In this document: positions 18,001 to 64,000 of the stretch, piece after piece
How the letters are laid out: every line of letters begins with the position of its first letter
Numbering within the stretch: position 1 is the first letter of the stretch
DNA from: Saccostrea cucullata
Taxonomy: Eukaryota
Reading direction: 5' to 3'
DNA: 64,000 nt
Assembly (NCBI RefSeq): GCF_032062105.1
Contig: NW_026940042.1
Location: 1 to 64,000, forward strand
Translations under genes and position numbers: made by a program
The notes under the pieces: generated by a model
Database searches by the model: none
Seen by the model: the letters and a program-made list of their open reading frames with translations, nothing else
What the model was told of the DNA's origin: nothing

Positions 18001-18970
18001 TATTCAAAGAAGAGTAACTCCAACATTTATTTAAACAAGCTGGTAAAAACATCATTGTATATACCCCAATAATGATACTTAGAAATGTGTATTTAAAAAA
18101 AGAAATGAATGAAGGGCATATGGTATATTAAGGTAAATGACCAATCATATTATAATTTAATAAATCATTAAATATTATCATAGGAAAAATTTCTTTTCCT
18201 TTTTTTTTTTTTTACATCAATCGGGTTGTCAGACATATTTATTTGTATGAAAATACATCCAAAGTGCTAACAATCATTGATCTGGAATCAAACCTACAGG
18301 ATATGATTTTAATATTCAGGAACATGCTCAGTTTGTAAAAATTTAACACATAAAAATTTAATTCACCCTATTTTAACCAAAATTCGTAAAAAATTACAGA
18401 ATTAAAAATAACCTGTTATACAGTATGAGTAATGACACATTGGGAACTTATGTCCTTTTTATATAAAAAGCTTAATTATGAAAAAAAATTATTTCACATA
18501 ATTCACAATCACTCAATCAATCTACTTTGAATAGTTTATTGAAGCTCTGATGCTGATTTAATTCAAAGGACCTAATGAGTAATTGTGCGTGCTTCTTTTC
18601 AGTTTGGGGTGATTATCAGGTATCAGGAATATTATACATCTGTTTGGATGATTACAAAACAAAGAAAAGCTGGAGACCAACATCCTGAGGTTAAAATTGC
18701 GGAAGATTCTCACGTGTGGATACCGAAAGGATGTTTGGATGATTGCAAGAATAATATATTGCTTCTCAGAAAATCACTCATATTAGTCAAAATGCATGTA
18801 TTTTTCTGATGGATCCCATGTAAATTTGGGCTGCTGTTTCTCTCCTTTGCTTTTTGTATACATATATATGCACTAGTCTACATTATTATAAACATTTAGT
18901 TATATACATTACCTACACTGCTTTGACAAGGAAATCTAGTATGTACTCCCAAATTTCCAGCAGACCTGGA

Positions 18971-20243
18971 TTAAGGATTTTTGTCAATATTCTTCATACT
19001 TCTGAGCAGAAAAGCTTCATAGTCATACTTCTCAGGCACTCTAGCCCATGCTATAATAAAATAAATTCACATATAAATTCATATAACTATGTCAACAATG
19101 TAATACACAATACACAAAACTAATTAAAGAACTCCTAGCTCCCCCCCCCCCCTGCCCCACTGCCCCATACTAAAGTTTTCAATGTCAATATTAGTAATAC
19201 CACTGAATAAAATTGCTTCTTTCTCCTGATCTAGGCATATTTGCAATGTTAAAATAAATAAATATACAAAACAATTATATTTAAAGCAAGAAGAGAGGTA
19301 CAAAGTGCTGCTCATACTGCAAGTTCTTACATCAATCCAATGCCTTGGTGAAAACAAAATGGATAGTCTATACAATGAACATAAAACCAAAATTTTCACC
19401 AAAGTTCAACATCATCCACAACCTGTTTGTTGTTGCCCAAATTAATTTCTTGAAGAAAAAAAAAAGGATTAAAAGACTCACTCACTCACTTCAATAAAAA
19501 TTGCTCACACTGATAAAATTTACCTGATAATGGATTTGCTGATATGCAACAAACATACCATTGATGTGTCGTAAGTCTACAGACCTCATGTATTAGATCT
19601 ATAACTTTACAAATGTATCATGTGGACTGAATGGGTCGGATCTAAGTAACTAGTAATAAATACTGATATATACTCAACTTTGGCTATCCCAATTATCACA
19701 CTGTCAAACATATAATACTATACCAGAAATTTCATATTATACTGTGATTACTGATTAACATAACACTGGTTTATTAATTATAACTGATTAAAGCAGAAAT
19801 AGATTCAATGAGCTGTTTTTCCATGAACGACACAACACAAAACAATGTTAACACTAGTAGTGGACACCAGACCAAAATGTTTGGTTCCTACGACATCTTG
19901 CTGAGATAAGTGAAATTATCAGTATATTATCTGTATGTGTTTGGTAAATATGGTAAATGATGTCACTAAGAAGACTTAAAGTATAAGTAATTATTTTCAG
20001 CGAAATGGGATTTAAGATGCAGGGGAAAAAATCAGTTCCCCGGGATCCGGTGATTGGAGTACTAGTTTTACCACCTGTCAAGCCAGACTGGCCTATAGCA
20101 TAAAATGCATACAATATACTCAGTACAACAACATTTTCAACAGTGCTTACAAATATAAAGTCCCAAAAACGACTGAATATCAACATACATTTTGTAACAA
20201 TGTCAATATTTCTATTTTCTATATTTCCCTCTTCCCTTTCCAT
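18971..20243 (-). CDS. Putative spliced 44-aa small ORF/uORF (exons 20243-20189 and 19050-18971): MEREEGNIENRNIDIVTKSWARVPEKYDYEAFLLRSMKNIDKNP
   Basis: Donor T|gtatgt and acceptor tttattatag|CA are phase compatible; the second exon continues to donor gtaatg at 18912. No family recognised. Confidence 0.3.
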
Positions 20244-20249
20244 CTTCAG

Positions 20250-20375
20250 ACGACATTATCTTCCTTCACGATTGGAGAGTCATGCGCAACTTACGAATGC
20301 GCAGACGCACTGCGTATGAAGGATGCGATCGCAATTTCATAAAATTGTGGAATAAAGTAAAAAGCTAGAGTGAGT
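20250..20375. promoter_or_regulatory. Probable bidirectional promoter
   Basis: CpG-rich island in AT-rich DNA with NRF1-like motifs (catgcgca 20281, tgcgcagacgca 20298) and an inverted CCAAT (20271). It is flanked by a + strand donor gtgagt (20370) and a - strand donor gtatgt (20188). Confidence 0.6.
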
Positions 20376-22154: not shown

Positions 22155-22694
22155 TATAAAATAGTCAAGTTTTGAAACTTTTTAAACGAATCCCCCATCT
22201 AGTTTGTTGGGTATGCCAGCTAGGGACTTAAATTAATTGCAGTTTAAAATGCAGAAATATCTATCTATGGTGGGCTTCCTACCCAACAAACTTGAGGTGA
22301 TTCCTGATATTTATCATGACCTTTGTTAGCAAAGAGTTTCTGATCCACTTCTCTTCTCACAAACTTCTTTCCAAGTGTCAAGTGAAGATGTATATATTTA
22401 CATTAAAATGTAAAATAGAAATGTAAATAATAAATCAAAATGATGTCTAATAGATTGAAATAAAAACATATTCCATGTCATTTACCATAGTCCTTGTCCA
22501 CTGATATCAGATGCATCGACAGCTAGGGAAATTGACATGCATTTTGGGGACTTGACCTTTCACTTGCCAAATTTACATTTATTTGTATATATGGAGAAAT
22601 ATACTTGACTTCATAAGTTTGTGACCTTTTTTTTGTTTGCAGTAGATTATTTGGTTCATTGTAATGATGAATACAGTGCAGATGTTGAAGTAGT

Positions 22695-22867
22695 ATGGCC
22701 TTGTCCATTGGAAGAGACTCCTGTCTTCACTGTGGCAGACTTCTTTCTAACAGCCAGTCCCCCTCTCCACCCTTGATAGATTCAACAGAATGGACGGATA
22801 TATTGTTGTCAGTGTTTTCAAAAGAGAAAACCTACCACAATGCTGAGAAGGAAAGCTTCTGTGACAG
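22695..22867 (+). CDS. Zinc-finger gene coding exon 1 (MALSIGRDSCLHCG...ESFCD)
   Basis: Acceptor ttttgtttgcag at 22642, ATG at 22695, open frame to donor AG|gtaaaa; phase 2 matches the next exon. Confidence 0.75.
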
Positions 22868-25800
22868 GTAAAATTTTTTATGTTTGTCAATAAATTTCAA
22901 TTAAGTTAAACATACTGTATGTGTACTTTAAAAAGCGGGCTTCATACTTTAGCTGCTTTGGCTTAGACAACAATGCGCTAATTCATGAATACCACTAAAA
23001 AATCATTGACATATACAATACACTGAATGGACGTGTGTAGCTCTAATTTATGATTACGCCAACAACTCCATACCCATTGATTACGCTAAATTTTGAATAC
23101 GCCAAATTATGTACATGTATAGTAGTCAATTTTCAATTGTTTAATTGCCAATGAATGCATTATTGTCAGGAGTCCATTTATTATCCACTCACAACAGAAT
23201 TGGAGGGGATATAGTAATGAGTGAGTGTGTTGATTTGTCCTTGTCCTTGTGCAGAACAGAAGTGACATATTTTGCATCAGGATCATGCAATGTCAATTGC
23301 TGCATTGATTTATAGATCTGTATGCTATTTGCAACTCAGCAAGGGGATGCACTGCTTCACAGTGCCCTTGTCTTTTTTTTTGGTAAAATGATGTCATAAA
23401 TAAATTGTGTGGAAGAGTCATATGATAGAAATGATATGATGAAAAGTTTAAAATAGAAAATTACTATTGTAATGTATATATTATTTTAATATTATCAGTA
23501 TGATATTTTGTATATTAGTTTTGAAGAGTTTATAAATGTGAGATTTTCTTTCAAATTTAGGTGCACATCCTCAATTCTCCAAGTTCACAAGACTCAGGAG
23601 GAATCAGTAAATGCAATAAACAATTTGGCAGCCTTAGCGAAGACCCAGGATGTGTCCTCAAATCTCCTGTCACAGAATGTTGTGTCATCTGCTGCAGAGG
23701 TAAAGTGGAGAAACATCAGCAAGGAATATGGTTGTTGCATAGATTTCAACCAGAGTTATCTAACTCTAGAATTACAAGTTAAATATTGTAACAAAAAAAA
23801 AGTGTTCAGCTTAAGTGTATTTTAATATTATGATTCTAAATAGTTTGCATGAGAATTTTGAAAACGAATTCTTGATTCAAATGTATAACACTTAAGAAGA
23901 TATTGTTCTTTGTAAAGTCAAAATAAAAGAATTTATTGAAAATTGGTCATGATATTTTTTAGGATCCTGAGCTTGACTGGTTCTTTGTGAGCTTTAATAG
24001 CAAGGAAGGTTCACTCCTATGGAAGGGCTCCGATAAAGGCTTGAACTTCATCAACAGTAACGACTCCATTAGCCACTCCTTCTTCCAGTATTGTACAGGT
24101 ACTCACACCTCAGTTAAGTCAGTATAAAAACCTCAGACAATGCATATACCTTTACCAACATTTCTTTTTATGTTGAGGAAAAACAGAAAGTAATACATCA
24201 CTTAATAGGTGACTTGCTGCTAACATATTTTGTTTGCATTATTGTAAAAGGCAAAGATTTATTTAGGTATATTTAAGACAAATCTTTCAAAATCTTCTGA
24301 TGAAGAATAGCAAATCTATGATTGGTCATATGTAATTCAGCAAACATAGGTAGTGTGTGTCAGGTTTGTTATGTCCCCCTTCAAAGAAGGGAGGGCATAT
24401 TGCTTTGCTGCTGTCTGTGGGTCGGTCTGTCAGTCCAGCATCAGTTTCCATTCATTTTCTTATCAGAGGTTGCACATATTGAAATGAAATTTTGTAATCG
24501 GGTACATCATAAGAATGTCTAGGTCAGATCTGTTTTGGGTACGATCGTTCCATATTGGACAGAGTTATGCTCCTTTGACTTAAAAAAAATTCCAATTATT
24601 TGCAGTTTCTGTTCATTTTCTTTGCAGAGATTGCACATACATTGAAATGAAATTTGGTATAAAGATTTATTATCAGAATATCTAGGTCATGTTCTGTTTT
24701 GGGTAGGATATGGAGGAGGGGGGCATAAATGTTTTACAAACACCTCTTGTTCAGATCATGATTCTCAAGGGAAGGATGTAGCCACAATAATAAATTAATT
24801 AAAATTTAACAAGGAAATACAAGGAAAATGTAAATATGTTCTTAAAGCTGAATACTACTCGGAAAAAGGCATAGTCCGCCATATTCCCCGGTTCATCAAT
24901 GCTTTTCCCAAACAACCCCTTTATAAGCAGCTGATCTCTTAACAGTTAAATTTATTTTGATTTAGAGGTCTGACAAGTGTAGACATACATCTTACACTGC
25001 TGTGCTACTTGGTCACGATGAAATTATCAAATTGTTTGTAACATATAAAATATAAATTATTTTGTAGATATAGCCGCCAACCAGATACAAGAAGATGATG
25101 ATCAACAAGATGGAGAAGAAGAGGTACAACTGACAACAAGTGTTGCAAGTTCCCTTGATGAATCTTGTGAACATTCAGAAGGAAATCAAGACTTAATGTG
25201 GAACTGCTGTGTCTGTAATGCTAATTATAAAACTAAGAAACTGCTGCTGTATCACATCCAGAAAACCCACAGCCTCAAGGGAGAGGAGGCTCAAAATGTG
25301 GCCAAAAGAAAATTCACTTCAGACGACACGGAAGTCTTAAGGGCAAAAGTAATGAAAACGGAGGACAGAGATTACAAAGAGAGGATTGAAAATGATGAAC
25401 AAAAGCACTGGAAGTGTTTAGAATGTGGAAAAATTTACATGTACAAAAGCAATGTCAAATACCATTTGAAGAAAGAACACAATATCAGCATGGCTGAGTC
25501 CTTGGAATACATAGCAGAGGCAACTTTTGAGGAAGTTACAAAAGCATTAGAAAAGGAGAAAGAGGGTTTAATGTACAAGTGTAAGAAGTGTGACAGACTG
25601 TACAGACTCAAGTCCTCTGTAGTAAGACACCTAAAGACTTACCACCATGTAGGAATGAAAAATGTCCCCAAATTTATTGTAATAAACAATGTAGTCCCCC
25701 AAGATGATATAGAGAGTCATGAAGCTCCAAATTTAGACCAGACACCTATGATTTCTGAAGTCAGGAATAATCTTACAGCAGAATCAGAGAAAGTGAAAGC

Positions 25801-28800
25801 ATGGACATGCAAAATTTGTCAAGTTTCATTTCAAGATCAGAAATTAATTGAGGAGCATATGTCTCAAGTCCATGAAATGAGGGTCAGCAAATCCAGAGCT
25901 TATATGGAGATTCCAAAGTCTGATGATGATGATGAAGGTGAAGGTGATGAAAGTGATGAATTAGGACCACCAAATATATTCCAATGCACAAATACAGATA
26001 AAGACTATCAAGTGTGGGGTTTCAGCTCTCTCAGAACAAGAGTTAAGCAATGGGGTTGTCAAAAATGTGGAGGTCAATTTTGTCACAAAAGAGATGCTCT
26101 TAGACATCTTCGTATTAGGCATTATTTGTCAGGAGAAAAGCGTTATATATATTTGAAGAAACTTGATACTGTTGACAGTATGCCTGAGTTGGAGAAGGAA
26201 CCCTCAGCACCCAAAAATGTTAAGAATTGGCAGTGCACAAAGTGTCGCAACAAGTATGTGTACAAAGGAGATGCTGCTCGCCATATACAGCTTCACCATG
26301 GAATTGATCATAACAGAGAAGACTTCATCATGTACACTGGCTCACAAGATAAACAGGATATAGGAATAGATAAGAATGACAAACAGGAAACAGGAATGGA
26401 TAAGAATGACATCATCATCATAGAATCCAATGAAGAGGACCTGTCCCCTGAGGCAGACGACACTGTAACTGAAGCAATTGGAGAGAAATTCAAATGGGGA
26501 TGTCAAAGGTGCAAAAAGGTCTTCCTGAGAAAAAACAAGCTGGTAGAACATATGAGGAACTATCATAATTTAACTTTAACAGAGTCAGGGGAGGAAGGAA
26601 AAAATATTTTAATTCAGAGTCCACTTGGAGAGGGAATAAAATGGAAAAAGGATGTTGATGAAGAACCTGAGGTTCAGGTAGAGGTTGAAAGCACCAAGGG
26701 GAAACCTCAAAAGGAATGGTTCTGCAAATTGTGTCACAAAAGCTATTTTCGTCATTCAGATGGAGCTAGGCATTGCAGGAATGCGCATAATGTAACTTAT
26801 GATGAGGGAAAGCTTATGGTTATACATGTTTCAGAAATGTCTGGAGATGAAATGAATAATTCAGAGGAAAAAGTAAATAGAGGGGAAGAGGAAAATAAAA
26901 AGGAACAACCCTGGAAATGTATAAAATGCAACAAGCAGTTTCAAAACAAGTCAGATGTTCAGCGGCATCTGACAGATGATCATTTCATCACTGATCAGGA
27001 TCATGAGTTTTTCATTGAGAGGAATAAGAACTATACCAGAAAATGGAAGTGCTGTAAATGTGGACAAAGATTTTTTCATCGTTTTGAGGCCTCCAGACAT
27101 GTTAACTTGACACATGATATTGAGTGGGGGAAGACAAAAGACTATGTCCAGTTTCTTGATGAAGATGGTTCAAGCTTTGAAGAAGTACAGAATAAAGATG
27201 GTTCAAAACCATATGTATGTATGATTTGTCAGAAACTTTTTGGTGCAAAGAAACCCTTAATGAGTCATCTGCAGAAATTTCACAAAGCTAAGATTAATGC
27301 TGATAATTTCGGAGAGCATGTGCTAAGTTTTCACAAAATGCATGCAAGAAACTGGGATTGTGTATCAGAGGATACTGAAAGTAGAGAACATACTGTTCCT
27401 TTGTCACTTTTAGGTTCCTACTTAATGGAAGAAAGCAAAGAAGCTGGAGAAGATGGTTCAATTGATGTGAATGGCATCAACATTAAGATATTATGTGAAG
27501 AAGGCTCTTTTACAGAGGATAACTGGGCAAAGATTATTGGAACCAGTTATGATAGCACCTGTAACAAATCCACTTCATACCGACCAAAGAATGACGTGGA
27601 AAACAAGCGGTTTAGTTGCATGATTTGTAACCTTAAATACTACAAAATGAAGGAAGCTCAGAGACATCTGTATTTGAAGCATAAGATATCCTATATAGAA
27701 GCTGTTAATTATATTATTGAAAACAAAGATGTGGTTTTTAATCAGGATGCTGAAGGTCTTGGTGAAAGAACCCCCAAACGTCGAAAAATAGGGGAAGGCA
27801 AGAGCGGAGTTTTCTTCTGTACACAGTGTATGAAGTCTGCCATCCATTTTCAGTCCAGTCAGCTTCATATTGTGAAATACCACAAGGAAAAGAAGGAAAA
27901 TATCCACAAAAAGATTTGCAGATCCCAAAATGTTGAAGTGTTGAAACTAGGAAATGAAGATAAAATGAACTTTGTCTGTATGCTCTGCTTTGTAACATTT
28001 AGGAGCAGAATTGATGGTTTTAAACACATTGCTAAAGAACACTCAGTAGTGCCTGAAGATGAAATATCTGAGTTCTTGTTCACAAAGGAAGACAAGATGA
28101 AAACCTGTATAGTTAAGTTTGAAAAATTGAGTGGCCTCATCAAAATCTTCAGTGTTACAACAGAAGACATCTTGAATGATGTGAAATTTTCAGAGGAGAA
28201 CAATAAAGAAGATGGATCAGATTCGGAAGATGACAAAAAAGTCAAGATTGAAAAAGATGATGGAAAAGAAGTTCATATGGAATATGAGAATGTTGAAGAT
28301 TCTCTAGCAATCCTTTTAATGAATATGAGCAACCCAGAGAATTTTCAGAAATTTGCATACAATGAGTTTTATTACATATTCTCAATACCTGCTAAATCAC
28401 AAAAGAATGTAGCTTTAAGTGAAGTTAACCACATTCCATGTCCAAACTGCCCCAGAGAATTTATTGATCACCATGCTCTCCATAGACACTTGCTATCCTG
28501 TTGTGTACCAAGACAAAATGCTTGGGAATGTCTAAATTGCAGAAAAAGTTTTAAATCTGTTGGAGTTTTAGTGAAACATATTCAGAAGATGTATGGAATT
28601 CAGGGTTCTAATGTGTTGAATTTCATGAGATCAAGAGAAATCCTTATTGCTCCAGAAAATGGTGTGGAAATTTCAGTGGATGGCCGGAATGACCAAGGCA
28701 TTCGTTCTCTTTACCATTCAATGTCAAGTCAAGAAAATATGGCAGAAGAAGATGAAGTGGATGATGAATTTGAAGTAAGCCTTGATGAGGGGGACTCCAG

Positions 28801-30319
28801 AAAGCTGTGTTTTGTTTGTGGACATCAGTGCCCAGACAGGAAGAGATTGTTTAAGCATTGTGAGGAGGTCCATTTCATCACAGGCCACAATAACCGCTTC
28901 ACAGAATGCATGCAGTGTGTGTCTTACTTCAAATCAAGAAAAGGAATCATGGATCATCTTCAAAAGGTTCATGGGGTAAAGTGTTCAAGTCTTCATGAGA
29001 AAAATCACATCTGTGTCATCTGTGAAGAGAAGTTTAGTGACAATGTTCAACTTGCTAAACACGTCAAGACGCATGGGATCCAGTTTACTTGCAAGCACTG
29101 TAGCAAGAAGTTTGATAGTTATTCAAAAATGGCAGCTCATTTGAAAATACACTCCGAAAAATTCACAAAGAAGCCTATGAACTGCATCATTTGTACTTTA
29201 TCTGTACCAGAAGAATCCTATATTGGACATCTGATCGTTCACTATGATAGAAAATATGGGCCTTGGAAATGTCGTGTGTGTGAGAAAGACTTTTATCTGA
29301 GAAAAAATCTTAAAGAACACCTTAAAGGAGAGCATAAGATTTTTATTTGTGAGAAATGTGGCAGAACCTTCAATTGCATGTACTCATTCAGAAAACATGA
29401 GTCAGTGCACAAAAACCAAATCAAGTGCACCTTGTGTAGCAAACAGTTTGCAAATAAAATAGAACTTGCTATCCACAGGAGGGTTCACATCAAGTATTGG
29501 ATTTGTCACATCTGTGGAAGGAATCTTCCCAGTCAAACATCACTGAATAGCCACTTAAAAGCCCACAGGGAGAAAAGGATAGTGACCTCAGCTCAAAAGT
29601 CCGAAAAGTTCTGTCAGATCTGCAACAGATCTTTCAGCAACCATGAGATGTATCAGAAGCACAAGACCATTCACAAAGGTGATAGACTTCACAGTTGTCA
29701 ATACTGTGGAAAGAAGTATTCCTACATTGGTTCCTTGAAACTTCACTATCGCAACTGCCATCCTGAGCACAAGCCCTATAGATGTGTAGTCTGTGGAAAA
29801 ACCTTTTCCACTTTCCACCAGAGAGTTCTCCACATGAGAGAACATAAAGATTACAAAGATCCCATTAGACCCTTCAAATGCTCTTTCTGTTCAGGAAGAT
29901 TCAAACATAAAATGAGCCTACAGCGTCATGAAAGACTAAAGCATTTCAATGAATCACTGAATGGCTTCAGATGTGACAAATGTGACAGAGAGTTTGAAAA
30001 TGGACAGAACTTGCTAAGACATGCAATGTTTTGTGAGCCAACTCAGCATCCTCTACAAGCAACTGGAGCAGGTTCCAGTGTCATAGTGGAGAATGAAAGT
30101 GCAGAGCTAGAGGTGGTGGCAGAGGAGACAATAGCAGGCACCTCCAGTGTACAATACTCAGTGGAACCTCAGTCTATGCAGGTCCACACTATTAACATTG
30201 GGTCTGAGGTGCTGTCTGTAGCCTGCAGTGACCAGGAGGAACTGATCCTTGAGGTACCAGAAGGGATGCTTGTGGAAACAGACATTGGGTACCAAATCAT
30301 CGTGTCAAAGGGAAATTAA
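22695..30319 (+). CDS. Multi-zinc-finger protein, ~1899 aa (ZAD-like N-terminus plus ~30 C2H2/C2HC fingers); exons 22695-22867, 23561-23699, 23963-24098, 25068-30319
   Basis: The 1707-aa ORF is open upstream to an acceptor (tttgtag|at, 25068). Three upstream exons have GT-AG boundaries and compatible phases (2,0,1), totalling 5700 nt. About 30 CxxC...HxxxH/HxxxxH/HxxxC motifs were counted by eye; basic PKRRK NLS-like motif. An alternative exon-2 donor at 23777 keeps the same phase. Confidence 0.88.
23561..23699 (+). CDS. Zinc-finger gene coding exon 2 (RCTSSILQVHKTQEES...SSAAE)
   Basis: tttag|G acceptor and GAG|gtaaag donor; lies inside the 23508-23825 ORF. Confidence 0.75.
23963..24098 (+). 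CDS. Zinc-finger gene coding exon 3 (DPELDWFFVSF...FFQYCT)
   Basis: ttttttag|GAT acceptor and ACAG|gtactc donor; phase 0 in, phase 1 out, matching the 25068 exon. Confidence 0.75.
24365..24752 (-). mobile_element. Helentron-associated short element in zinc-finger intron 3
   Basis: ttatgtccccc...gagggcata hairpin, ctgt microsatellite, internal duplication, gggggcata...aaacacctcttgtt end. Confidence 0.65.
25068..30319 (+). CDS. Terminal 5.25-kb coding exon of the zinc-finger gene
   Basis: Uninterrupted ORF containing all C2H2 fingers; TAA at 30317-30319; AATAAA at 30377. Confidence 0.95.
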
Positions 30320-32192
30320 ACATTAAGCTTACATTACTGTTTGTATGGATATGCAAGTATAATCAAATTAGCACTCAATAAACTCCCTTCTTATTTTAAG
30401 CTCTAATGCACAGGTTACGTGAGCTTTTGATTTTTTCTCACAAATGTCTTTCCATCTAGCTGCCTGCTTGCATTGTTTGATTCCTCCTCTAGTATTGCTA
30501 GACCAGTTCAAACCAAATTTTCTACTGTGAATGGATTGATAGAGGGGATTCACTTGAAAATATAATGATTCCTATACTTTATTTGAATTAAAACTTGACT
30601 TCCATGATAAGGAATGGATTGGAAAATTCTTATAAAAACTTTTTGTCAAAAAAAAAACGGAGTTACATTTTTCAAGATTAATATTCAAATATATTCATGC
30701 AGCGTTGACTTTGGTTCAAAATTTGGCCGTAGAGTAAGGACTGGTCCAAAATTAGAGCCACTGTAATACTGAAAATCTAAAATGAACAAGGGAGGCTTTG
30801 TTTAATTAACCAATTAATTAATCAATACATAGCATTTTTATGTTGTATTTTTTCCACTAGTTAGATATTGTTTCCGGTGAGCAGAGTGGCCAAAGGATCT
30901 CCTTTTGGTTCATTTTAGATGCTTGTAACACAGCCAATAGATATTACCTGAGTCATTTCAAAGGAATTTTTGTTGAAGTTGATTTGTAATGAAAAAGTCA
31001 AATAGAAACATATTCTAAATGCATACAGTTATAACATAAAAATGTTAGCATTAAGTATGAAACTAATATGAAAAAGAGCATCCTATGATTCTAAATGCTG
31101 TCCACTTTCCATTCTGAATCATGTTTATAGGGCTACCTATACATTATTATTTGTGATAACCTTTCCTGCCAAAATTTGTGTAGTATTTTTGGGGGTGGGG
31201 ATGTGATAATCACATTTTGGATATTCTTTACCTTTCAAACATATGTGTTACATAAATTACAAATTTCCCTAGCATTACTGAGACCATTTTATTGTGATGT
31301 GGATTGTGTGAATAGACTCATCAATCTGACAATTATTCATGTAAAAGGAAAAACATTTTCAGGCTGTTAACCTTTGTATGGGTTTGTTAATCTGATAATC
31401 TTATGGAGCTGTTGATTTATGTGACAATTATTGAACACGATTATGCTGTGACTTTTTCAATTCAGATTGGCTGTTTTGAATTAAATGTTGATGAACGATT
31501 GAAGAATTATACCAGTGATGAAGAATCTTACCAATTTAACTTGAAAAATTATTGATTAAGAAGTTTTTTTTATTAATTGACTCTTTCAATTTCTTTTAGT
31601 AATTCAATTTGTTGGATGCCTGATTAATGCTGCAATTCATTTAGTATAATGAGTTAAGAGTATTAATCATATTTTTCAGTGAAGCTACATGAATCAATTT
31701 TAAAATAAGAAAAATGGTTGTATAGAAATCCCTTACTTTTATACTTATTTAATGACTTGTGGATGTACTTGCATTTACTTTTTCAATTTTTCTATTGCAC
31801 AACTTTATTTCAGTATACTGTAATATTTTATTCAGTGCTATTTGAATTGATAAAGTTGGGAAAAATTGCTTGTAAGTTGTCTTGCTTGCCATTAATTTGA
31901 TCAGGATATATATAGTTATATATATATTTTAGATAAATGAAACTTTTTGATGAAAAAAGAGAAAGGGTGAGAAAATGCAAAATTAATGAGTTGATGGAGT
32001 TTGAAGATGAAATATTTTGCGCTGATCATTCATTCCTTAATTCTTTTGTTAGAATGGCCTAAAAAACACTGAATAAACAAGTCTGTAGCTTGTAAGGACC
32101 CAATTCCCTCATAAGCAAATCTTTAAGACAGTAAAACAATTTTTTGCTGGCACTCGAGTCACTCAGTTGACTGATTGCTATGAAATGAAACG

Positions 32193-36740: not shown

Positions 36741-37559
36741 TTGCTCTCATTTGCTGTTGTTTCAAAGTACAGGTCGAAATTTTCGTGTTACTATTGAACA
36801 TGCTTACTGTTCGTGTATCTCCAAATCTTTAAGATTATTCACAAAACTGATGCCGTTTCTTAATGATTTCTCCTCTGAGGTTCACATTCAGAAAAGTAGG
36901 ATTCAGTGTATTAATGGGGATTGTCTACCGGAATATTTTTGTTGCTGGGTAAATAGATTTCAAACGGTAATTTATCGAAGATAACTGCTGTTTTATGTTT
37001 TAGGGGTAAAACTATAAGAATGAATTGAATTTTGATTTTGGTCGTGTTACAACCAATTAATCGCCTTGAATGTCGCCCATTACATTTGGTTGACAAGATT
37101 TAGACTTTTTCCTAATGATGGGGTACTTCCAACTACAGCTCAGGAAATAAAGAATACGAGAAACACACGAAGGGGTTTAATAGATACAATAAATATGGAA
37201 TAAAACCGGAAGATCATTGACTTCGAAACTTCGGTCAAAGCCAAATAATGCTAAGATGCTAAAGAATATTCCTATAAAACCGAGGTCTCCATTCCGAGAA
37301 GCAATTTCACACCCGGAGTTACAGCGGGACACGATATCAATATTTGTAGGCACAAAGAAGGCCCGACAAGGAGTTTTATACACTTCAACACCTAATTACG
37401 CCTGCACTCACTGGTTTCAAACCGTTTTAAATGCATCATAATCATCGGCGCTGGAGCAAAAATCCATCACTGTGTTTACTTTGTAATGTCCAAAAATGTC
37501 AAAATTCTTTCTCGCTGTCCTCACATGAACTTGATAAGCAATTTTTTTCAGCATTTGAC

Positions 37560-39239
37560 ATGGAAAATATCACCTCTACTGGCGTCTACGAAAATATAAC
37601 TGAACCCGAGGTATCGTCTGCAAAAAGTTCTCCATTCCATCCTGCCCGGAGTGGTTACGATTTACCTGTGTACGGTCTTGAGAATGGACAGTTTTACTCC
37701 ATACACATTCCTGCAATCACTTGTATTGTCCTTAGCTTTATTTCTGCTGTAGCCATCATAATTGCATCCTTTAGACTACAGAACATCAAGACATTTTTCT
37801 CGTGGACAAAGAGTGAACGGTTTGTTGTCTATTTGGCACTGTGTGATGGACTTTTCAATATTGCGCATAGTTTGGACCATACTCACATTGTTCTGACCAG
37901 AAACCACGTGTACCCCAAGGAACTGTGCGAGTTTTACGGCTTTATGTTGGCCGAGTTCATCACTGCTCAAAATCTTATGGTGAACGTTGTTGCGCTGAAC
38001 GTTTTCATTTTGATATATTTCACGAAAGACTTGAATTTTGGCGTCTATGATTGGCGTCTTCTTCTGTACACCTTTGGCCTTCCATGCGTCGGAGGAACTT
38101 TGGCTGCTTACTTCGATATGCTTGGACCTAATGGTACTTTGTAAGTTAACGTGACATATAAATGTACAGATCTGTATTTTATGGTTTATGTTCTTTGATT
38201 TTTTTTTCATTTAATTAAGGTATTCAATGCCTTTTCTTTGCTATACTAGTAGTCTTCCCGGCGTTTTGACGATTTTTTATTTGCATAATAAATAAAAGAG
38301 AATATGTTCAATAGAGAAATCTGTTACATTAGTCTGAAAAGGGGTCCGGAGAGCCACTGGAATGTCGCAAGGAAGTTCTGACGCGTAGTCGATATCATAA
38401 ATGAGAAGCGCTTTATTCCAATGACTTGGATTATTTCATTCATACTAAATATCAATGGCCAACACTTTTTTGAAAATATTGTTTCTATAATCGATCGATT
38501 TTTTAATCTGATTTATATAACAATCAATGAAGATTTGCAGAAACATAGACAGTCAGACAATCGCAAAAAATTGCTCATTTCAAGATTTAGCAAAATTAAA
38601 TAATCAAAAAAGCCAAAGTATTGTTTGCTCTGCTCCTATTTTGTATTGTTTTATGGACTTTTTTGCTTGGATGCTATTGGTTATCTCCAAATGTTTCGTT
38701 ACCAGGAAAATTTAATAAAAGATTATTTATATAATAATTAAGTTCCGGATAATAGAATAATACTGTATTTTTTGTTTAGCTGCTATTTTGACGGGGTTAA
38801 GGGAGAAGTTGCCAACCTGTTCTTCACCACTGTACCACTTTTAACCGTCCTTCTCATGAATATCATTGTCTACGGCCTGACATGGAAGCGGATAAGAAGC
38901 GAGTCTAAGCGTCTCCAGCACACCCTGGGTCAGGAAGCCGCCACCATCCGGGCTTCTCTCCAGGCGGCGAAGACCATGTCGCTATTTGTCACGGCCTTCT
39001 TCGCCCAGTGGTGGGCCATGGCGCTGTACGGAATCTGGCAAATGCTGGCCCCTGTTCCCCAGACTCTGTTTCAGTTCGTGACGACGTTTTCTAACATTGG
39101 CGGTATCCTTAACGGTATCGTCTATATCCTCATCAGACGACGGAGAGCCAAGGCCAAGTCCAAGAGAGCAGCGAATGTGGACAAGAAATTTCAGAATATC
39201 AATTCTGTCAGCGATAAAGTTGAAAATTCAAGTGTTTGA
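37560..39239 (+). CDS. 7TM GPCR, cAMP-receptor-like/GPR157-type, copy 1 (346 aa; exons 37560-38140, 38780-39239)
   Basis: Seven hydrophobic segments, N-terminal NxT sequons, ERFVVYLALCD in TM2, TM3 Cys, ECL2 GPNGTFC across a phase-2 intron (TT|gtaagt...tttag|C), TM7 GGILNGIVY; no DRY or NPxxY. Confidence 0.9.
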
Positions 39240-43724: not shown

Positions 43725-44850
43725 TTATATTCTTGTGTCTTCAGTTGTAAAGTTAGGATTGATAGTTCCCACTCCCGAGTCCTTAGATTTCTGATCAGGA
43801 CCATTAGGCGTTTTAGGGGTCTTATTCCGCTTTCTTCTTCTTCGGATGATGATATACACAGCTCCGTTATAAACACCGCCAAGGTTAGTAAATATGACAA
43901 TCACAGTAAAAAATTCTTGTGGCACCTTTGAAAAATTTTGCCACACACTAACTATACCGAGGGCCCACCACTGGATAAAAAAGACGGTTACAAAGAGGCT
44001 CATCAGTTTGGCTGCATTGTAAGACGCCCGTACAGTTTGGGCCTCTGTTCCAAGCATGGCTTTGATCCGCTTGGATTCCACGTGGATTTTCCACCATGTG
44101 AGGGTATAGAGCACCACGTTTATAACCAATACAGTAGTTATCGGAACAGTTACAAAAAATATGCTGGCAAGTGTCCCCTTTACGGCATCAAATGCACAAC
44201 TGAAAAAAATAACATAAATTAGCTGAAACTGACGCAGAAACTTTATAATGTAAAAACAATCACACGTTACCAAATAGGAACAAAATAGGAATACGTATTT
44301 GAAGTGCTAAATAAAATATATACTAAGATCCCGAAGGTCCATAGTATCCTAAACTGACTGCACACAGTGACATCACAAAAGGTACTCCGAATGTGTAAAG
44401 AAGAAGCTTCCAATCATATTTGCCAAGTTTGAACTGCTTCTGAAGATAAATGAGTCCAAAAGCGTTAATTGCTGCCACGTTGGTCATAAGAAGCTGCACA
44501 GCTATAATTCCGCATAGGAAGAAGGCATAAAACTCGCACAGCTCTCTGGGATACACATGTCCTTTTGTGATGACCATTTGAAGATGGTCCATGCTGTGTG
44601 TCAGATTGAAAAATGCGTCACACAAAGAAAAGTACACTACAAAACGCTCACTTCGCGTCCAGGAAAAGAACGACCGCGTCTGACTCCGGAATGACGCAAT
44701 GATGACGGCAGATGCAGTAAAAAGACTGAGAAAGATACAACACAAGGCAGGAATGTGGATAAAGAGGAACCATTGTGTGTCTAGTCCATAAACATCTAAA
44801 TCATATCCATCCTTTACAATTGTCTTCGGTCTATATGTGTTGTTTTCCAT
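43725..44850 (-). CDS. 7TM GPCR copy 2 (333 aa from ATG 44850; exons 44850-44324, 44199-43725); the ancestral start at 44892 is cut off by TAA
   Basis: Paralogous to copies 1, 3 and 4 with the same phase-2 intron (GPSGS-Y-CAFD). Confidence 0.85.
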
Positions 44851-50323: not shown

Positions 50324-51543
50324 TTAAACGTTTGTGTTGACAATAGATATGGAAGTGTTACTGTTTCCTACTCCAGAATCTTGGGACATCTGACTCGAAC
50401 CCTTCACTTTAGAGCCGTAATTCTGTTTTCTTCTTTTCTTGATGATGATGTACACTACCCCATTTAACACACCACCGAGGTTTGTGAATACGACAACCAC
50501 CGTGAAGAATTCCTGTGGCACCACCGCAAAATTGAGCCACACACTGATGATTGCTAGGGCCCACCATTGGATAAAGAATGCAGCTACGAAGAGACTCATC
50601 AACTTGGCCGCCCTGTGAGACGCACGCAGCGTTTTGGCTTCGTTCCCGAGCACCGTTTTTATCTGCTTGGATTCCACGTGGATTTTCCACCACGTAAGGA
50701 CATAGAGAACCACGTTTACAGCCAGAATAGCGGTCATCGGGATGGTTATAAAGAAAACGCTGGCAAACGCTCCTTTAATGCCATCAAAGGCACAACTGTA
50801 ATGAAAAGAAAAAATATGAGTGAAAATTTTCATATTAAACATTAATGAAAGCATTTTGAAATAAATGCGTGCATGTGCTGTAAAAATAAAATCTAGAGAT
50901 AACGAACAGTATTTAAGCTCAAAAGTCCATCGAATATAAATCGGGAGCAGAACAAATGAAGAAAGTGCTATTACTAAGATCCTGAAGGCCCATAATATCC
51001 CAGATTTACAGCAATTGTTGACAACACGAATGAAAACCCAAAAGTATACAAGAGAAGCCTCCAGTCATATCTGCCGAGTTTGAACTGTTTCTTTAGATAA
51101 ATCAAGCCAAAGGCATTGAAAGCTGCCACATTGGTCATCAGAAGTTGCGCAGTGACGAATTCTCCGATGAAGAAGGCATAAAACTCGCACAACTCCCTGG
51201 GATACACGTGTTCTTTTGTGATGACCATCTGAAGATGATCCATACTATGTGACAAATTGAAAAGTGCGTCACACAAAGAAAGGTACACTACAAAACGCTC
51301 ACTTCGCGTCCAGGAGAAGAACGACCGCGTCTGACTCCGGAATGACGCAATGATGACGGCAGACGCACTAAAAAGACTGAGAAAGATACAACATAAGGCA
51401 GGAATGTGGATAAAGAGGAACCATTCTGTGTCTAGTCCATAAACATCTAAATCATATCCATCCCTGGGAATCTTTTTTTCTTGCAATGTGACGTTTTCAA
51501 CAAAACTACCTCCCATAGAACCCAAGGTTGAATTTTGATCCAT
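50324..51543 (-). CDS. 7TM GPCR copy 3 (346 aa; exons 51543-50975, 50795-50324)
   Basis: Same motifs and intron position; TA|gtaata...ttacag|T. Confidence 0.9.
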
Positions 51544-52285
51544 TAGAAAAACGTATGCTAGAGACGTACTAAAGAACCTTGAAAGAAAAACTGTAATCCT
51601 TAAAATGAATGCGTCTTTCTAGCTCGTCTGAATTTATCTGTAATGAATGCTGTTTGGCCTAGAGTAGGCAAGCATTTGTCTTCGTCAAGTGAACGCTTCT
51701 GGGTAGCTGATATTGTTCTAATTTTTAAACAAGAATTCTGAAGAGAATTCTAATAAATCATGCTTGTTTCAACATGAGAGACGCCTTTCTGACCTTACAT
51801 CCTCGTTTAATTAATTTGTCACTTCTAGAAACTCCTGGGAACTCCATGTGGAACAGGAACGATTGACGGTGCATTACTACGGTAATCCCTACTTTCTAGC
51901 AATCACTATCAAAGTGCATCATTGTTAATGCAAAGTTTTCCCTATACAGAAATCAAAATTATATTCGTCACTTTAATAAGCTATGAAATTAATCTACTAG
52001 CCCATACTCCAAGAATTTATGATTCTTGATGATTTAGGAAAAAATTATCGATTATAGGATTGAGACCAACAAAAATTCCTATTTTGTAATTCAAATCAAA
52101 AGGAAAAGGTCTAAATTTCAAGCCTTTTACATGCGTCTTTAAAAAAAAAAAAAAACGAAAACCGTCGAAAAAGCTTTGTCTAAAAAAAAGGATCTATATA
52201 TAGGAACCGGTGTCTTGTCATCTCAGTAATGAGACTAATTTAAGCTGATTTTGCTCAGCTTTATTTGATAATTCCCAGTACTTAA

Positions 52286-62070: not shown

Positions 62071-63233
62071 TTACATTGCTGTGTCTACAGTCGAAATGTT
62101 AGTGCATGAATTTCCCATGCCAGAGTCCAGAGACATCTGACTACAATTCTTTTTGACCTTAGAGACTTTAGAGTTATAATTCTGATTTCTTCTATTTTTA
62201 ATGATGATGTACACTACCCCATTTAACACACCACCGAGGTTTGTGAACACGACAACCACCGTGAAGAATTCCTGTGGCACCACCGCAAAATTGTGCCACA
62301 CACTGATGATTGCTAGGGCCCACCATTGGATAAAGAAAGCAGCAACAAAGAGACTCATCAGCTTGGCCGCCCTGTGAGACGCACGCACCGTCTGAGCCTC
62401 TTTTCCTAGCATGGTCTTGAGCCTTTTGGATTCCGTGTTGATTTTCCACCATGTTAAGATATAGAGCACCACATTTACCACAAGGATGAGGGTTATTGGA
62501 ACAGTTACAAAGAAAACGCTAGCAAGTGCTCCTTTCACGCCATCAAATAGGCAACTGTAAAAAAAAAATCAAAGAATTTATAAGGAGCGATTCATATAAA
62601 AGTATTAATATGATTTAGAGGAAATAAGTTAATTGATATAAGTATGCATAGTTAAAAATAAAATTACTAAGATCCTGAGGGGCCATAATATCCTAAATTC
62701 ACGGCACACATTGACATTACAAAAGGTACTCCGAATGTGTAAAGAAGAAGCCTCCAGTCATATCTGCCAAGTTTGAACTCTTTATGAAGGTAAATGAGTG
62801 CGAAAGCGTTGATAGCTGCCACATTAGTCATCAGAAGTTGTGCAGATACAAATTCACCAAGGAAGAATGAATAAAACTCACACAGTTCTCTGGGATACAC
62901 GTGTTCCTTAGTGATGACCATCTGAAGATGGTCCATGCTGTGTGTCACATTAAAGAGCGCGTCACACAGAGACAAGTACACTACAAAACGCTCACTTCGC
63001 GTCCAGGAAAAGAACGGCCGCGTCCGACTCCGGAATGACGCAATGATAACGGCAGATGCACTAAAAAGACTGAGAAAGATACAACATAAGGCAGGAATGT
63101 GGATAAAGAGGAACCATTGTGTGTCTAGTCCATAAACATCTAAATCATATCCATCCCGGAGGACCTTATCTCTCTGTGTGCTGTTCTGTGCCGAATTATT
63201 CCTCGACAGATTAGAGAAAGAAACTTGATCCAT
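62071..63233 (-). CDS. 7TM GPCR copy 4 (349 aa; exons 63233-62668, 62554-62071)
   Basis: Same motifs and intron position; the MDQ start aligns with copy 3. Confidence 0.9.
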
Positions 63234-64000
63234 TTGAATACAGAGAAAATATTCCAAGGAATAAAGGAGAATTCAGAGAAATGCAAAGACTGAGAGTCTA
63301 CTGAGTATTTAAGGATAAGACGCCTTTGTTAACCGTTTTGAACTCATTTGGAAACAAATGACGCATGTCCTTGAATAAATACATGCCATCCCCTGATCAT
63401 CAACCAAACGCTCTAATTCAGATACTAATTCTGTGATGAAATTCTCCAAAGGTGTGTTTTAAAACTATGGTAACTAATATTGTGCCACTAGAGACTACCA
63501 TTTGTTTAAAGAGTGCAATTAGTAAAATGCCTTTCCATTAGATTGTTTCTACAGGGAAATTTAAATACAGAGGGCAAAGAGGAGGAAGCTTATTGGTAGC
63601 TCATTATTTACTTTCCAAGATTTCAAATAAAAAATATTGTTCGAGCACAGTTTTTCCGTTTAATATTGATTACAGAAAACCACAACTAAAATTTGTCTTA
63701 ACATATGTCGCACATTCGCCCCCTTAGAAAAGTCAAATTTCTTGAATTTTGACTTACTCTATAGTTGGTTTATGAGCATTGGATCTTCGTTATATGTGCT
63801 AAGGAATCAAAGGTACCCCCTTGCTGAATTGTATGAAAGAAAACCATTTATTAAAATAGCATCGGGCATTGCTCGATAAATCATTTGTATTCATTCTTAA
63901 CGAACATGTCATATTTTAAAAGCAAGGTCTCAGGTCAAGGTCATTTTTCATTGACGTTAATTAAAAAAAATGCTGTTGTCAATCATGTGGTGCGTACTTT

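What the first reader, a model, noticed from the sequence alone, without database searches (positions are those of the whole stretch)
22695..23699. Hidden ZAD-like (zf-AD) C4 domain on a ~30-finger protein in a probable mollusc
Seen: splicing exons 1 and 2 yields CLHC, about 42 residues, then FCDRC followed by an amphipathic helix (TSSILQVHKTQEESVNAINNL); the second Cys pair is split by the intron. Known: the ZAD dimerisation domain has this CxxC-x40-CxxC-helix layout; ZAD-ZNFs are expanded in insects and include Drosophila architectural/insulator proteins. Inference: this may be a lophotrochozoan ZAD-ZNF with an unusually large finger array. Models starting at the long ORF would miss the domain.
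Basis: partly seen in the sequence, partly recalled or inferred. Interest (0 to 1): 0.7.

Follow-up and report, generated by a model that had tools for sequence, protein, structure and literature searches.

The report
Hidden ZAD-like domain in oyster regulator
An oyster gene encodes a 30-zinc-finger protein whose spliced front end, unrecognised by the domain library searched, is predicted to fold and pair up like the ZAD domain of insect gene regulators, which would extend this kind of regulator to molluscs.

Summary
Observation confirmed. The window is oyster DNA; four coding exons give an 1899-aa protein identical to a Saccostrea cucullata RefSeq protein. RNA contigs of a relative join 22867 to 23561 in 3 of 4 runs. 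CxxC-x42-CxxC is kept in 5 of 5 oyster species. The domain fails the Pfam zf-AD cut-off (best 15.4 of 28 bits). But solved Drosophila ZADs rank first in two fold searches (Z only 4-5), the ESM Atlas top hit is zf-AD, and a ZAD-style antiparallel homodimer is predicted (0.59 vs control 0.01). It works like a ZAD; descent from insect ZAD or ZNF276 is unproven. Corrections: RefSeq already includes the exons; no relative was found outside oysters; only 12 of 30 fingers are tightly clustered. Side result: 36 of 59 zf-AD matches in this genome sit upstream of DUF6589 in AcademH-like transposons, and none heads a finger array within the up to 9 kb read. A transposon origin of the host domain got only weak, unstable support. 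The scan had not reported this protein on other DNA.

The parts
20303..20369 (+). Non-coding first exon (start approximate), head-to-head with a minus-strand gene
   Evidence: One RNA contig joins 20369 to 22646, GT..AG, 67 letters on the short side; 1 of 4 runs
22664..22693 (+). 9-codon upstream ORF ending one base before the main ATG
   Evidence: Sequence; function untested
22695..22867 (+). Coding exon 1: residues 1-57, with Cys10 (22722), Cys13 (22731), short helix 30-40, Cys56 (22860)
22868..23560 (+). 693-base GT-AG intron inside the Arg codon of C-D-R-C
   Evidence: RNA joint in 3 of 4 runs; the same break point is seen in records P0018, P0058, P0059 of other oysters
23561..23699 (+). 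Coding exon 2: Cys59 (23562) and the long helix predicted to form the dimer interface (residues 58-85)
23963..24098 (+). Coding exon 3: conserved 45-residue aromatic-rich element of unknown kind (residues 105-150)
   Evidence: Joint 23699/23963 in 4 of 4 runs; 59-83% identity across species; no Atlas hit; model pLDDT under 50
25068..30319 (+). Coding exon 4: acidic linker, all C2H2 fingers, acidic tail, stop
25205..28972 (+). 18 mostly isolated C2H2-like fingers (residues 196-1451); most carry a shared hydrophobic extension after the last His and many a Trp before the first Cys
   Evidence: Gaps of 22-132 residues for 15 of 17 gaps; of 17 tallied, 15 have I/L/V/M two after the last ligand, 10 a later aromatic-aliphatic pair, 10 Trp at -2
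29012..30034 (+). Cluster of 12 C2H2 fingers (residues 1465-1805), the likely DNA-reading part
   Evidence: Gaps 4-15 residues, 74-91% identity, all four base-contact positions invariant in 5 of 12 fingers versus 2 of 18 isolated ones; 0 TGEKP linkers
30050..30316 (+). Conserved acidic C-terminal tail (residues 1811-1899)
   Evidence: 70-92% identity; no Pfam family over cut-off
30320..31826 (+). 3' untranslated region (end approximate)
   Evidence: RNA contigs run to 31538-31826; contigs cannot show a true end

Best explanation
This transcribed, single-copy oyster gene encodes a 30-finger C2H2 protein whose conserved N-terminal four-cysteine domain is predicted to bind one zinc and to homodimerise like a ZAD, which would likely make the protein a two-armed DNA-binding regulator. 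Shown: gene structure, splicing, conservation of the four Cys, finger layout. Predicted: zinc knuckle plus short helix plus long helix; antiparallel pairing of the long helices with each tip packing on the partner's zinc knuckle. Inferred from Drosophila ZAD proteins: the dimer stabilises binding of the C-terminal 12-finger cluster at paired or weak sites and may bridge distant sites, while the isolated extended fingers more likely bind proteins or RNA than read a continuous DNA motif.
For: Cys and core residues invariant in 5 of 5 species. AlphaFold2 model of residues 1-104: pLDDT 77.7, helices 30-40 and 57-102, matching the short alpha1 and long alpha2 of CG2712 ZAD (PMC7913770 section 16). 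Among 48,161 chains, Drosophila ZADs take ranks 1, 2, 4, 9, 10 for this model (best Z 5.0, rmsd 3.3, 73 aligned) and ranks 1-5 for the M. gigas ortholog (best Z 4.7, rmsd 3.1, 73 aligned; ZNF276 ZAD rank 14). ESM Atlas top hit is a zf-AD cluster, 0.90, 184 of 256 features, and 10 of the 10 best named hits share its family or clan. The S. echinata ortholog aligns to zf-AD positions 1-67 of 75 at E 0.023. Homodimer score 0.59, best of 3 controls 0.01, runs agree in at least 89% of contacts, partner pLDDT at least 73; that mark was reached by 21 of 30 solved pairs and 0 of 23 single chains in microbes, and 17 of 29 pairs and 0 of 30 singles in eukaryotes. The predicted contacts include all 7 helix offsets that CG2712 uses (taking its last Cys as C69, my inference) and the Cys1+2 and +4 positions.
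Against: Pfam zf-AD: 1 of 5 orthologs hits at all, 15.4 bits against a cut-off of 28; the window's own domain has no hit. Foldseek finds nothing at E 0.001 or better for either model and no ZAD shows in the PDB sequence search. Z 4-5 lies in the range the tool calls a common arrangement, and unrelated helical proteins tie (augmin 4.7, bHLH 4.5). Only 2 of 5 AlphaFold models scored above 70. The dimer pass may be memory of solved ZADs: only 1 of 7 eukaryotic pairs without an older solved relative passed. Shuffled proteins reach 0.9 in the Atlas 4-10 times in 100. Interface residues are only marginally more conserved (8 of 20 vs 11 of 56, P 0.07), and 13 of 19 helix positions in the compared span are contacts, so the offset match is modest evidence. 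No DNA binding or nuclear role was tested.
Confidence: 0.68

Rival explanations
1. The domain is ZAD-like because an oyster ancestor captured the N-terminal zinc module of an AcademH-like transposase and fused it to a finger gene, independently of insect ZAD-ZNFs and ZNF276. It would still dimerise.
For: 36 of 59 zf-AD matches in this genome have DUF6589-like sequence downstream on the same strand and 24 a convergent helicase; 10 of the 12 over the cut-off have DUF6589 downstream. One of 5 elements examined has terminal inverted repeats and a perfect 10-base target duplication, a second has 93-base repeats; AcademH makes 9-10 base duplications (PMC10045372). The gene is found only in oysters. 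A 12-sequence profile of the element domains scored the host domain 25.6 bits, 0 of 200 Cys-fixed shuffles reaching it.
Against: With 19 sequences the score fell to 16.4 bits (3 of 500 shuffles) and the three non-Saccostrea orthologs were weak (155, 112, 20 of 500); hhalign probability fell from 54% to 16%; the reverse search beat all shuffles for 0 of 19. That is no better than the insect-based Pfam profile. The host domain has an intron, whereas the element copies match in one frame. No DUF6589 or helicase remnant in the window. No insect or ZNF276 sequences were on hand for a tree.
Confidence: 0.2
2. It is a different four-Cys zinc module followed by a generic coiled-coil helix (A20/Rabex-5 or RAG1 ZFa type), not a ZAD homolog; it would bind another partner such as ubiquitin or a cofactor rather than itself.
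For: Rabex-5 1-74 aligns at Z 4.1, rmsd 2.2, 56 residues, tied with ZADs; zf_UBZ is the best weak Pfam hit of the S. echinata ortholog (E 0.012, 12 residues); ZAD and RAG1 ZFa share a local framework without shared dimerisation (10.64898/2026.01.24.700457).
Against: Cys spacing of 40-44 and the middle helix fit ZAD; ZADs lead both fold searches over 66-76 aligned residues; homodimer passes with controls near zero; N-terminal place on a C2H2 protein.
Confidence: 0.15
3. The exons are a weakly constrained or optional leader and the Cys pattern is incidental.
For: NCBI predicts isoforms without the domain in O. edulis (P0018) and C. virginica (P0045); the domain is less conserved than the fingers.
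Against: 23 of 80 residues invariant in 5 species versus 1 of 42 in the linker; 12 of 16 listed substitutions silent; junction in 3 studies.
Confidence: 0.04

Closest known systems
Arthropod ZAD-C2H2 proteins (Pfam zf-AD PF07776; M1BP, Grauzone, CG2712, Serendipity-delta, Pita)
   Same: N-terminal CxxC...CxxC, short and long helix, predicted homodimer in which the long helix meets the partner's zinc module, C-terminal finger cluster
   Different: Below the Pfam cut-off, 10-19% identity in structural alignments; single copy rather than an expanded family; 1899 aa with 30 fingers, 18 mostly isolated, versus 10 clustered in Pita; extra conserved exon-3 element; no function shown
Vertebrate ZNF276/ZFP276 ZAD-like domain
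   Same: A lone ZAD-like C2H2 protein outside arthropods (PMC7913770, PMC12649048); its solved domain aligns at Z 3.5, rmsd 2.9, 56 residues
   Different: No ZNF276 among the hits; it is not listed in the top 50 for the window's own model; ZNF276 has far fewer fingers (recalled)
N-terminal zf-AD-positive module of AcademH-like DNA transposons in the same genome (DUF6589 plus convergent RecQ-like helicase)
   Same: Same C4 layout, spacing mostly 39-47 (one 52), long following helix
   Different: Mobile, multi-copy, intronless module, several over the Pfam cut-off; sequence link to the host domain weak and unstable
RAG1 NZD / Chapaev Chapa domain
   Same: ZFa is described as locally similar to ZAD and transposon-borne (10.64898/2026.01.24.700457)
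   Different: Two zinc sites there; here only four clustered invariant Cys plus scattered His12, His48, Cys148
ZNF521 / Xfin (the automatic NCBI names)
   Same: About 30 C2H2 fingers
   Different: Names come from finger content; no ZNF521 or Xfin protein among the 15 hits, whose non-oyster hits cover only 13-25% of the query

Membership tests
ZAD (zf-AD) C2H2 proteins | Four invariant Cys as two CxxC pairs | tested here: met
   C10, C13, C56, C59; 5 of 5 species, spacer 40-44
ZAD (zf-AD) C2H2 proteins | Domain at the N-terminus of a protein with a C2H2 cluster | tested here: met
   Residues 8-87 of 1899; 12-finger cluster at 1465-1805
ZAD (zf-AD) C2H2 proteins | Pfam PF07776 score at or over 28 bits | tested here: not met
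   No hit for the window's domain; 1 of 5 orthologs 15.4 bits
ZAD (zf-AD) C2H2 proteins | Short alpha1 between the Cys pairs and long alpha2 starting at the second pair | tested here: met
   In prediction only: helices 30-40 and 57-102, pLDDT 89-94 over 31-80; same in the M. gigas model
ZAD (zf-AD) C2H2 proteins | Significant structural superposition on solved ZADs | tested here: inconclusive
   ZADs rank first but Z 4.0-5.0, tied with unrelated helical chains; Foldseek blank
ZAD (zf-AD) C2H2 proteins | Homodimer geometry: long helix against the partner's helix and zinc module | tested here: met
   In prediction only: 0.59 vs best control 0.01; contacts 12-14, 40, 58-85; may be from memory of solved ZADs
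ZAD (zf-AD) C2H2 proteins | Measured zinc binding, self-association and chromatin function | not testable with these tools
   Needs bench work
ZAD (zf-AD) C2H2 proteins | Common descent with arthropod ZAD | not testable with these tools
   No arthropod or ZNF276 sequences could be obtained for a tree
ZNF276 orthologs | Sequence orthology over the finger region | tested here: inconclusive
   No ZNF276 hit in word-limited and length-limited searches or the profile search of the N-terminus
AcademH-like transposon (for the gene in the window) | DUF6589 transposase, convergent helicase, multi-copy | tested here: not met
   No tblastn hit in the window; single copy
AcademH-like transposon (for the zf-AD loci elsewhere in the genome) | DUF6589 gene, helicase, terminal inverted repeats, 9-10 base target duplication | tested here: met
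   All met for G000:C14040:98858-107425; repeats without clear duplication for C13435; 3 of 5 elements showed no convincing enclosing repeats. DUF6589 = AcademH transposase is recalled and agrees with earlier notes; the defining paper was not held
RAG1 NZD / Chapa domain | Two interdigitated zinc sites | tested here: inconclusive
   Only three further invariant Cys/His, scattered; a second site is unlikely but was not modelled

The most novel reading that the evidence does not exclude
ZAD-like dimerisation modules travel on AcademH-like DNA transposons, and host finger genes have captured them more than once. This oyster protein would be an independent, mollusc-born ZAD-ZNF, and the patchy range of ZAD (insects, one vertebrate gene, oysters) would reflect repeated domestication rather than loss, with many more intron-split ZAD-like heads hidden below library thresholds.
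Probability: 0.17. Interest if true: 0.8.

Novelty: new variant of a known kind. Interest (0 to 1): 0.52.

Why it matters
The papers read describe ZAD-C2H2 proteins as abundant in insects, few in crustaceans and single in vertebrates, and one asks why ZADs spread in insects only. A conserved oyster ZAD-like finger protein that the library misses suggests the range is under-counted, and gives a third lineage in which to test whether ZAD-type dimers are a general route to architectural or cooperative DNA binding; the Pita domain-swap assay makes this directly testable. The presence of recognisable zf-AD modules on oyster helicase-carrying transposons offers a concrete candidate source for the domain, echoing the reported ZAD link to RAG1 and Chapaev.

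Tried and rejected
Pfam on single exons: no family. PDB sequence search with the 5-species profile: 13 chance hits, none ZAD. Foldseek against PDB and viral models: nothing at E 0.001. Relatives outside oysters: none (word- and length-limited) or in 1.84 billion representatives (4 hits = the protein itself, two single-exon read-throughs matching the C. virginica ortholog, and one repetitive protein, P0060, rejected as a repeat artefact). These blanks do not prove absence. Exon-3 element: no Atlas hit, unreliable model. Transposon affinity: the first profile result did not hold up with more sequences, so it is not used as support for the best reading. Two of the 59 zf-AD genome matches are plain C2H2 arrays and two more look like noise; these four were dropped before building the 19-sequence profile, as were matches without both Cys pairs (41 kept, 19 after removing near-duplicates). 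The zf-AD genome scan missed this very gene because of its intron, so it cannot exclude other split ZAD-like genes. One reference (L013) was mis-addressed and its result ignored. Literature: no paper held all of ZAD + zinc finger-associated domain + mollusc or zf-AD + oyster; the listed rows showed no co-occurrence of ZAD or zf-AD with mollusc terms, and searches listed no paper on ZAD in Academ elements. Only top rows were seen, subscription papers are not covered, Kojima 2020 on AcademH was not held, Chung 2007 and Jauch 2003 were not read, and no supplements were opened; any of these, or automatic UniProt ZAD labels on mollusc proteins (recalled, untested), may already record mollusc or transposon ZADs.

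Full report
Observation. With exons 23963-24098 and 25068-30319 the product is identical to P0001, an 1899-aa RefSeq protein of Saccostrea cucullata named 'Xfin-like', whose precomputed Pfam list holds only C2H2 families. So the annotation already has the exons; what is missing is the domain label. RNA contigs from a relative about 4% diverged skip this intron in 3 of 4 runs (3 studies), the next intron in 4 of 4, and one 7047-base contig spans a non-coding first exon to the 3' UTR. Twelve of 16 listed differences in coding exons 1-3 are silent (one search hid 66 rows).

Conservation and range. Full-length orthologs were found in S. echinata, Ostrea edulis, Magallana gigas and Crassostrea virginica. 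All four Cys, His12, Trp33, Tyr47-His48, Phe55, Arg58 and the helix residues Ile63, Leu64, Gln70, Ser73, Leu80-Ala84 are invariant. Residues 8-87 keep 23 of 80 positions invariant, the linker 1 of 42. Nothing outside oysters was found with the long ORF, the N-terminus, the middle region or a profile over 1.84 billion representatives; these searches miss distant relatives. The gene is single copy in this assembly.

Is it a ZAD? By library, no: the window's domain has no zf-AD hit and 1 of 5 orthologs scores 15.4 of 28 bits, although over profile positions 1-67 of 75. By prediction, it looks like one. The model of residues 1-104 (pLDDT 77.7; 2 of 5 models above 70) has a short helix 30-40 and a long helix from 57, the layout described for CG2712 and Grauzone (PMC7913770, passages and section 16 read). 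Against 48,161 solved chains, M1BP (Z 5.0, rmsd 3.3, 73 aligned) and Grauzone (4.9, 3.2, 68) rank first, with three more ZADs in the top ten among tied helical proteins. For the M. gigas ortholog the top five are all Drosophila ZADs (Z 4.0-4.7) and ZNF276 is 14th. Z values this low are not significant alone, and Foldseek found nothing. The ESM Atlas gives a zf-AD cluster first (0.90, 184 of 256 features; shuffles reach 0.9 in 4-10 of 100). Two copies with zinc fold as an antiparallel dimer scoring 0.59 against a best control of 0.01, runs agreeing in at least 89% of contacts, pLDDT at least 73; the mark was reached by 21 of 30 solved pairs and 0 of 23 single chains in microbes, by 17 of 29 pairs and 0 of 30 singles in eukaryotes, but by only 1 of 7 without an older solved relative, so the pass may show likeness to solved ZADs rather than binding. 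Leu80 and Leu83 pack on the partner's His12, as ZAD alpha2 helices meet the partner's zinc module. Interface positions are only marginally more conserved than others (P 0.07). No single line is decisive; they agree, though the model-based ones are not independent of known ZAD structures.

The rest of the protein. There are 30 finger motifs. The last 12 are clustered (gaps 4-15), best conserved (74-91%) and keep all four base-contact positions in 5 of 12; none has a TGEKP linker. The first 18 are mostly isolated, and most share a hydrophobic extension after the last His and often a Trp before the first Cys, which suggests internal duplication of an extended finger. Single fingers with extra elements can mediate protein pairing (10.1101/2025.09.04.674178, abstract only); that role here is inference. 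A conserved 45-residue exon-3 element after the long helix has no identified family.

Mechanism. Most likely a dimeric nuclear regulator: the N-terminal zinc module pairs two chains, each carrying a C-terminal DNA-reading cluster, stabilising binding and possibly bridging sites, as ZAD does for Pita (PMC12649048, passages). ZAD proteins have many other roles (PMC12947871, passages), so an insulator role is only one option. NCBI isoform models lacking the domain in two species hint at a monomer/dimer switch; untested.

Where could it come from? A zf-AD scan of this genome gave 59 matches, 12 over the cut-off, and missed this gene. All 59 neighbourhoods were read, up to about 9 kb downstream (less at contig ends): 36 have DUF6589-like sequence on the same strand, 24 a convergent helicase, several others are near-copies or fragments of the same families, 2 are plain C2H2 arrays, and none is an intact C4 module followed by a finger array. 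One element (G000:C14040:98858-107425) has terminal inverted repeats and a perfect 10-base target duplication, the length given for AcademH (PMC10045372, passage; PMC10799480, passages). The defining AcademH paper was not held. A profile of 12 element domains scored the host domain 25.6 bits (0 of 200 Cys-fixed shuffles), but with 19 it fell to 16.4 (3 of 500), three orthologs were weak, and the reverse search beat all shuffles in 0 of 19. Capture from a transposon is therefore possible but not shown; the conserved intron argues against a recent event. A preprint already links ZAD to the RAG1 and Chapaev N-terminal zinc modules (10.64898/2026.01.24.700457, passages).

Novelty. The papers read place ZAD-C2H2 proteins in insects, a few in crustaceans and one in vertebrates; one calls the domain largely insect-specific (PMC4351887, passages); PMC10547256 (passages) mentions ZAD only for flies in what was shown; PMC8887482 was seen as a listing only. 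Searches pairing ZAD or zf-AD with mollusc or oyster terms found no paper or none in the listed rows. This does not cover subscription journals, supplements or database auto-labels. Earlier scan notes had no match to this sequence; one describes a different mollusc-annelid finger head domain and two agree on DUF6589 and AcademH. Verdict: a real, conserved, ZAD-like variant in oysters; works like a ZAD with about two-thirds confidence; formal membership and ancestry open.

Noticed in passing
G000:C14040:98858-107425 (L017 with L031, L032) and 35 further loci among L015-L083: AcademH-like transposons whose first ORF starts with a zf-AD-positive module; one has inverted repeats and a 10-base target duplication. 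They account for most recognisable zf-AD matches in this genome.
   Followed up: partly
window 23963-24098: Exon 3 encodes a conserved aromatic-rich 45-residue element (59-83% identity) with no family found; a low-confidence model suggests three strands and a helix.
   Followed up: partly
window 25205-28972: Isolated C2H2 fingers share a Trp at -2 and a hydrophobic C-terminal extension: a repeated extended-finger module.
   Followed up: partly
window 30050-30316: Acidic, strand-like C-terminal tail conserved at 70-92% across oysters, no known family.
   Followed up: no
window 22664-22693: A 9-codon upstream ORF stops one base before the main start codon; possible translational control.
   Followed up: no
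P0018 (O. edulis X3), P0045 (C. virginica X2): Predicted isoforms lacking the four-Cys domain; P0018 joins another first exon to the same acceptor.
   Followed up: no
window 18909-20245, minus strand: A spliced head-to-head neighbour starts about 60 bases from this gene's first exon (joint 19050/20189 in 3 of 4 runs). Its joined frame meets a stop after 44 codons in this assembly, next to a cluster of differences from the RNA contigs.
   Followed up: partly
window 37431-39239 (+), 43725-44850, 50324-51618, 62071-63272 (-): Four paralogous two-part seven-transmembrane receptor genes (Pfam Git3 E 2e-7 and 7tm_1 E 3e-6 on the first copy).
   Followed up: no
window 25062-25074 and 22640-22646: Closely spaced alternative AG acceptors that keep the frame at the last exon (25068 used by RefSeq; 25074 would drop two residues) and at the first coding exon.
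   Followed up: no
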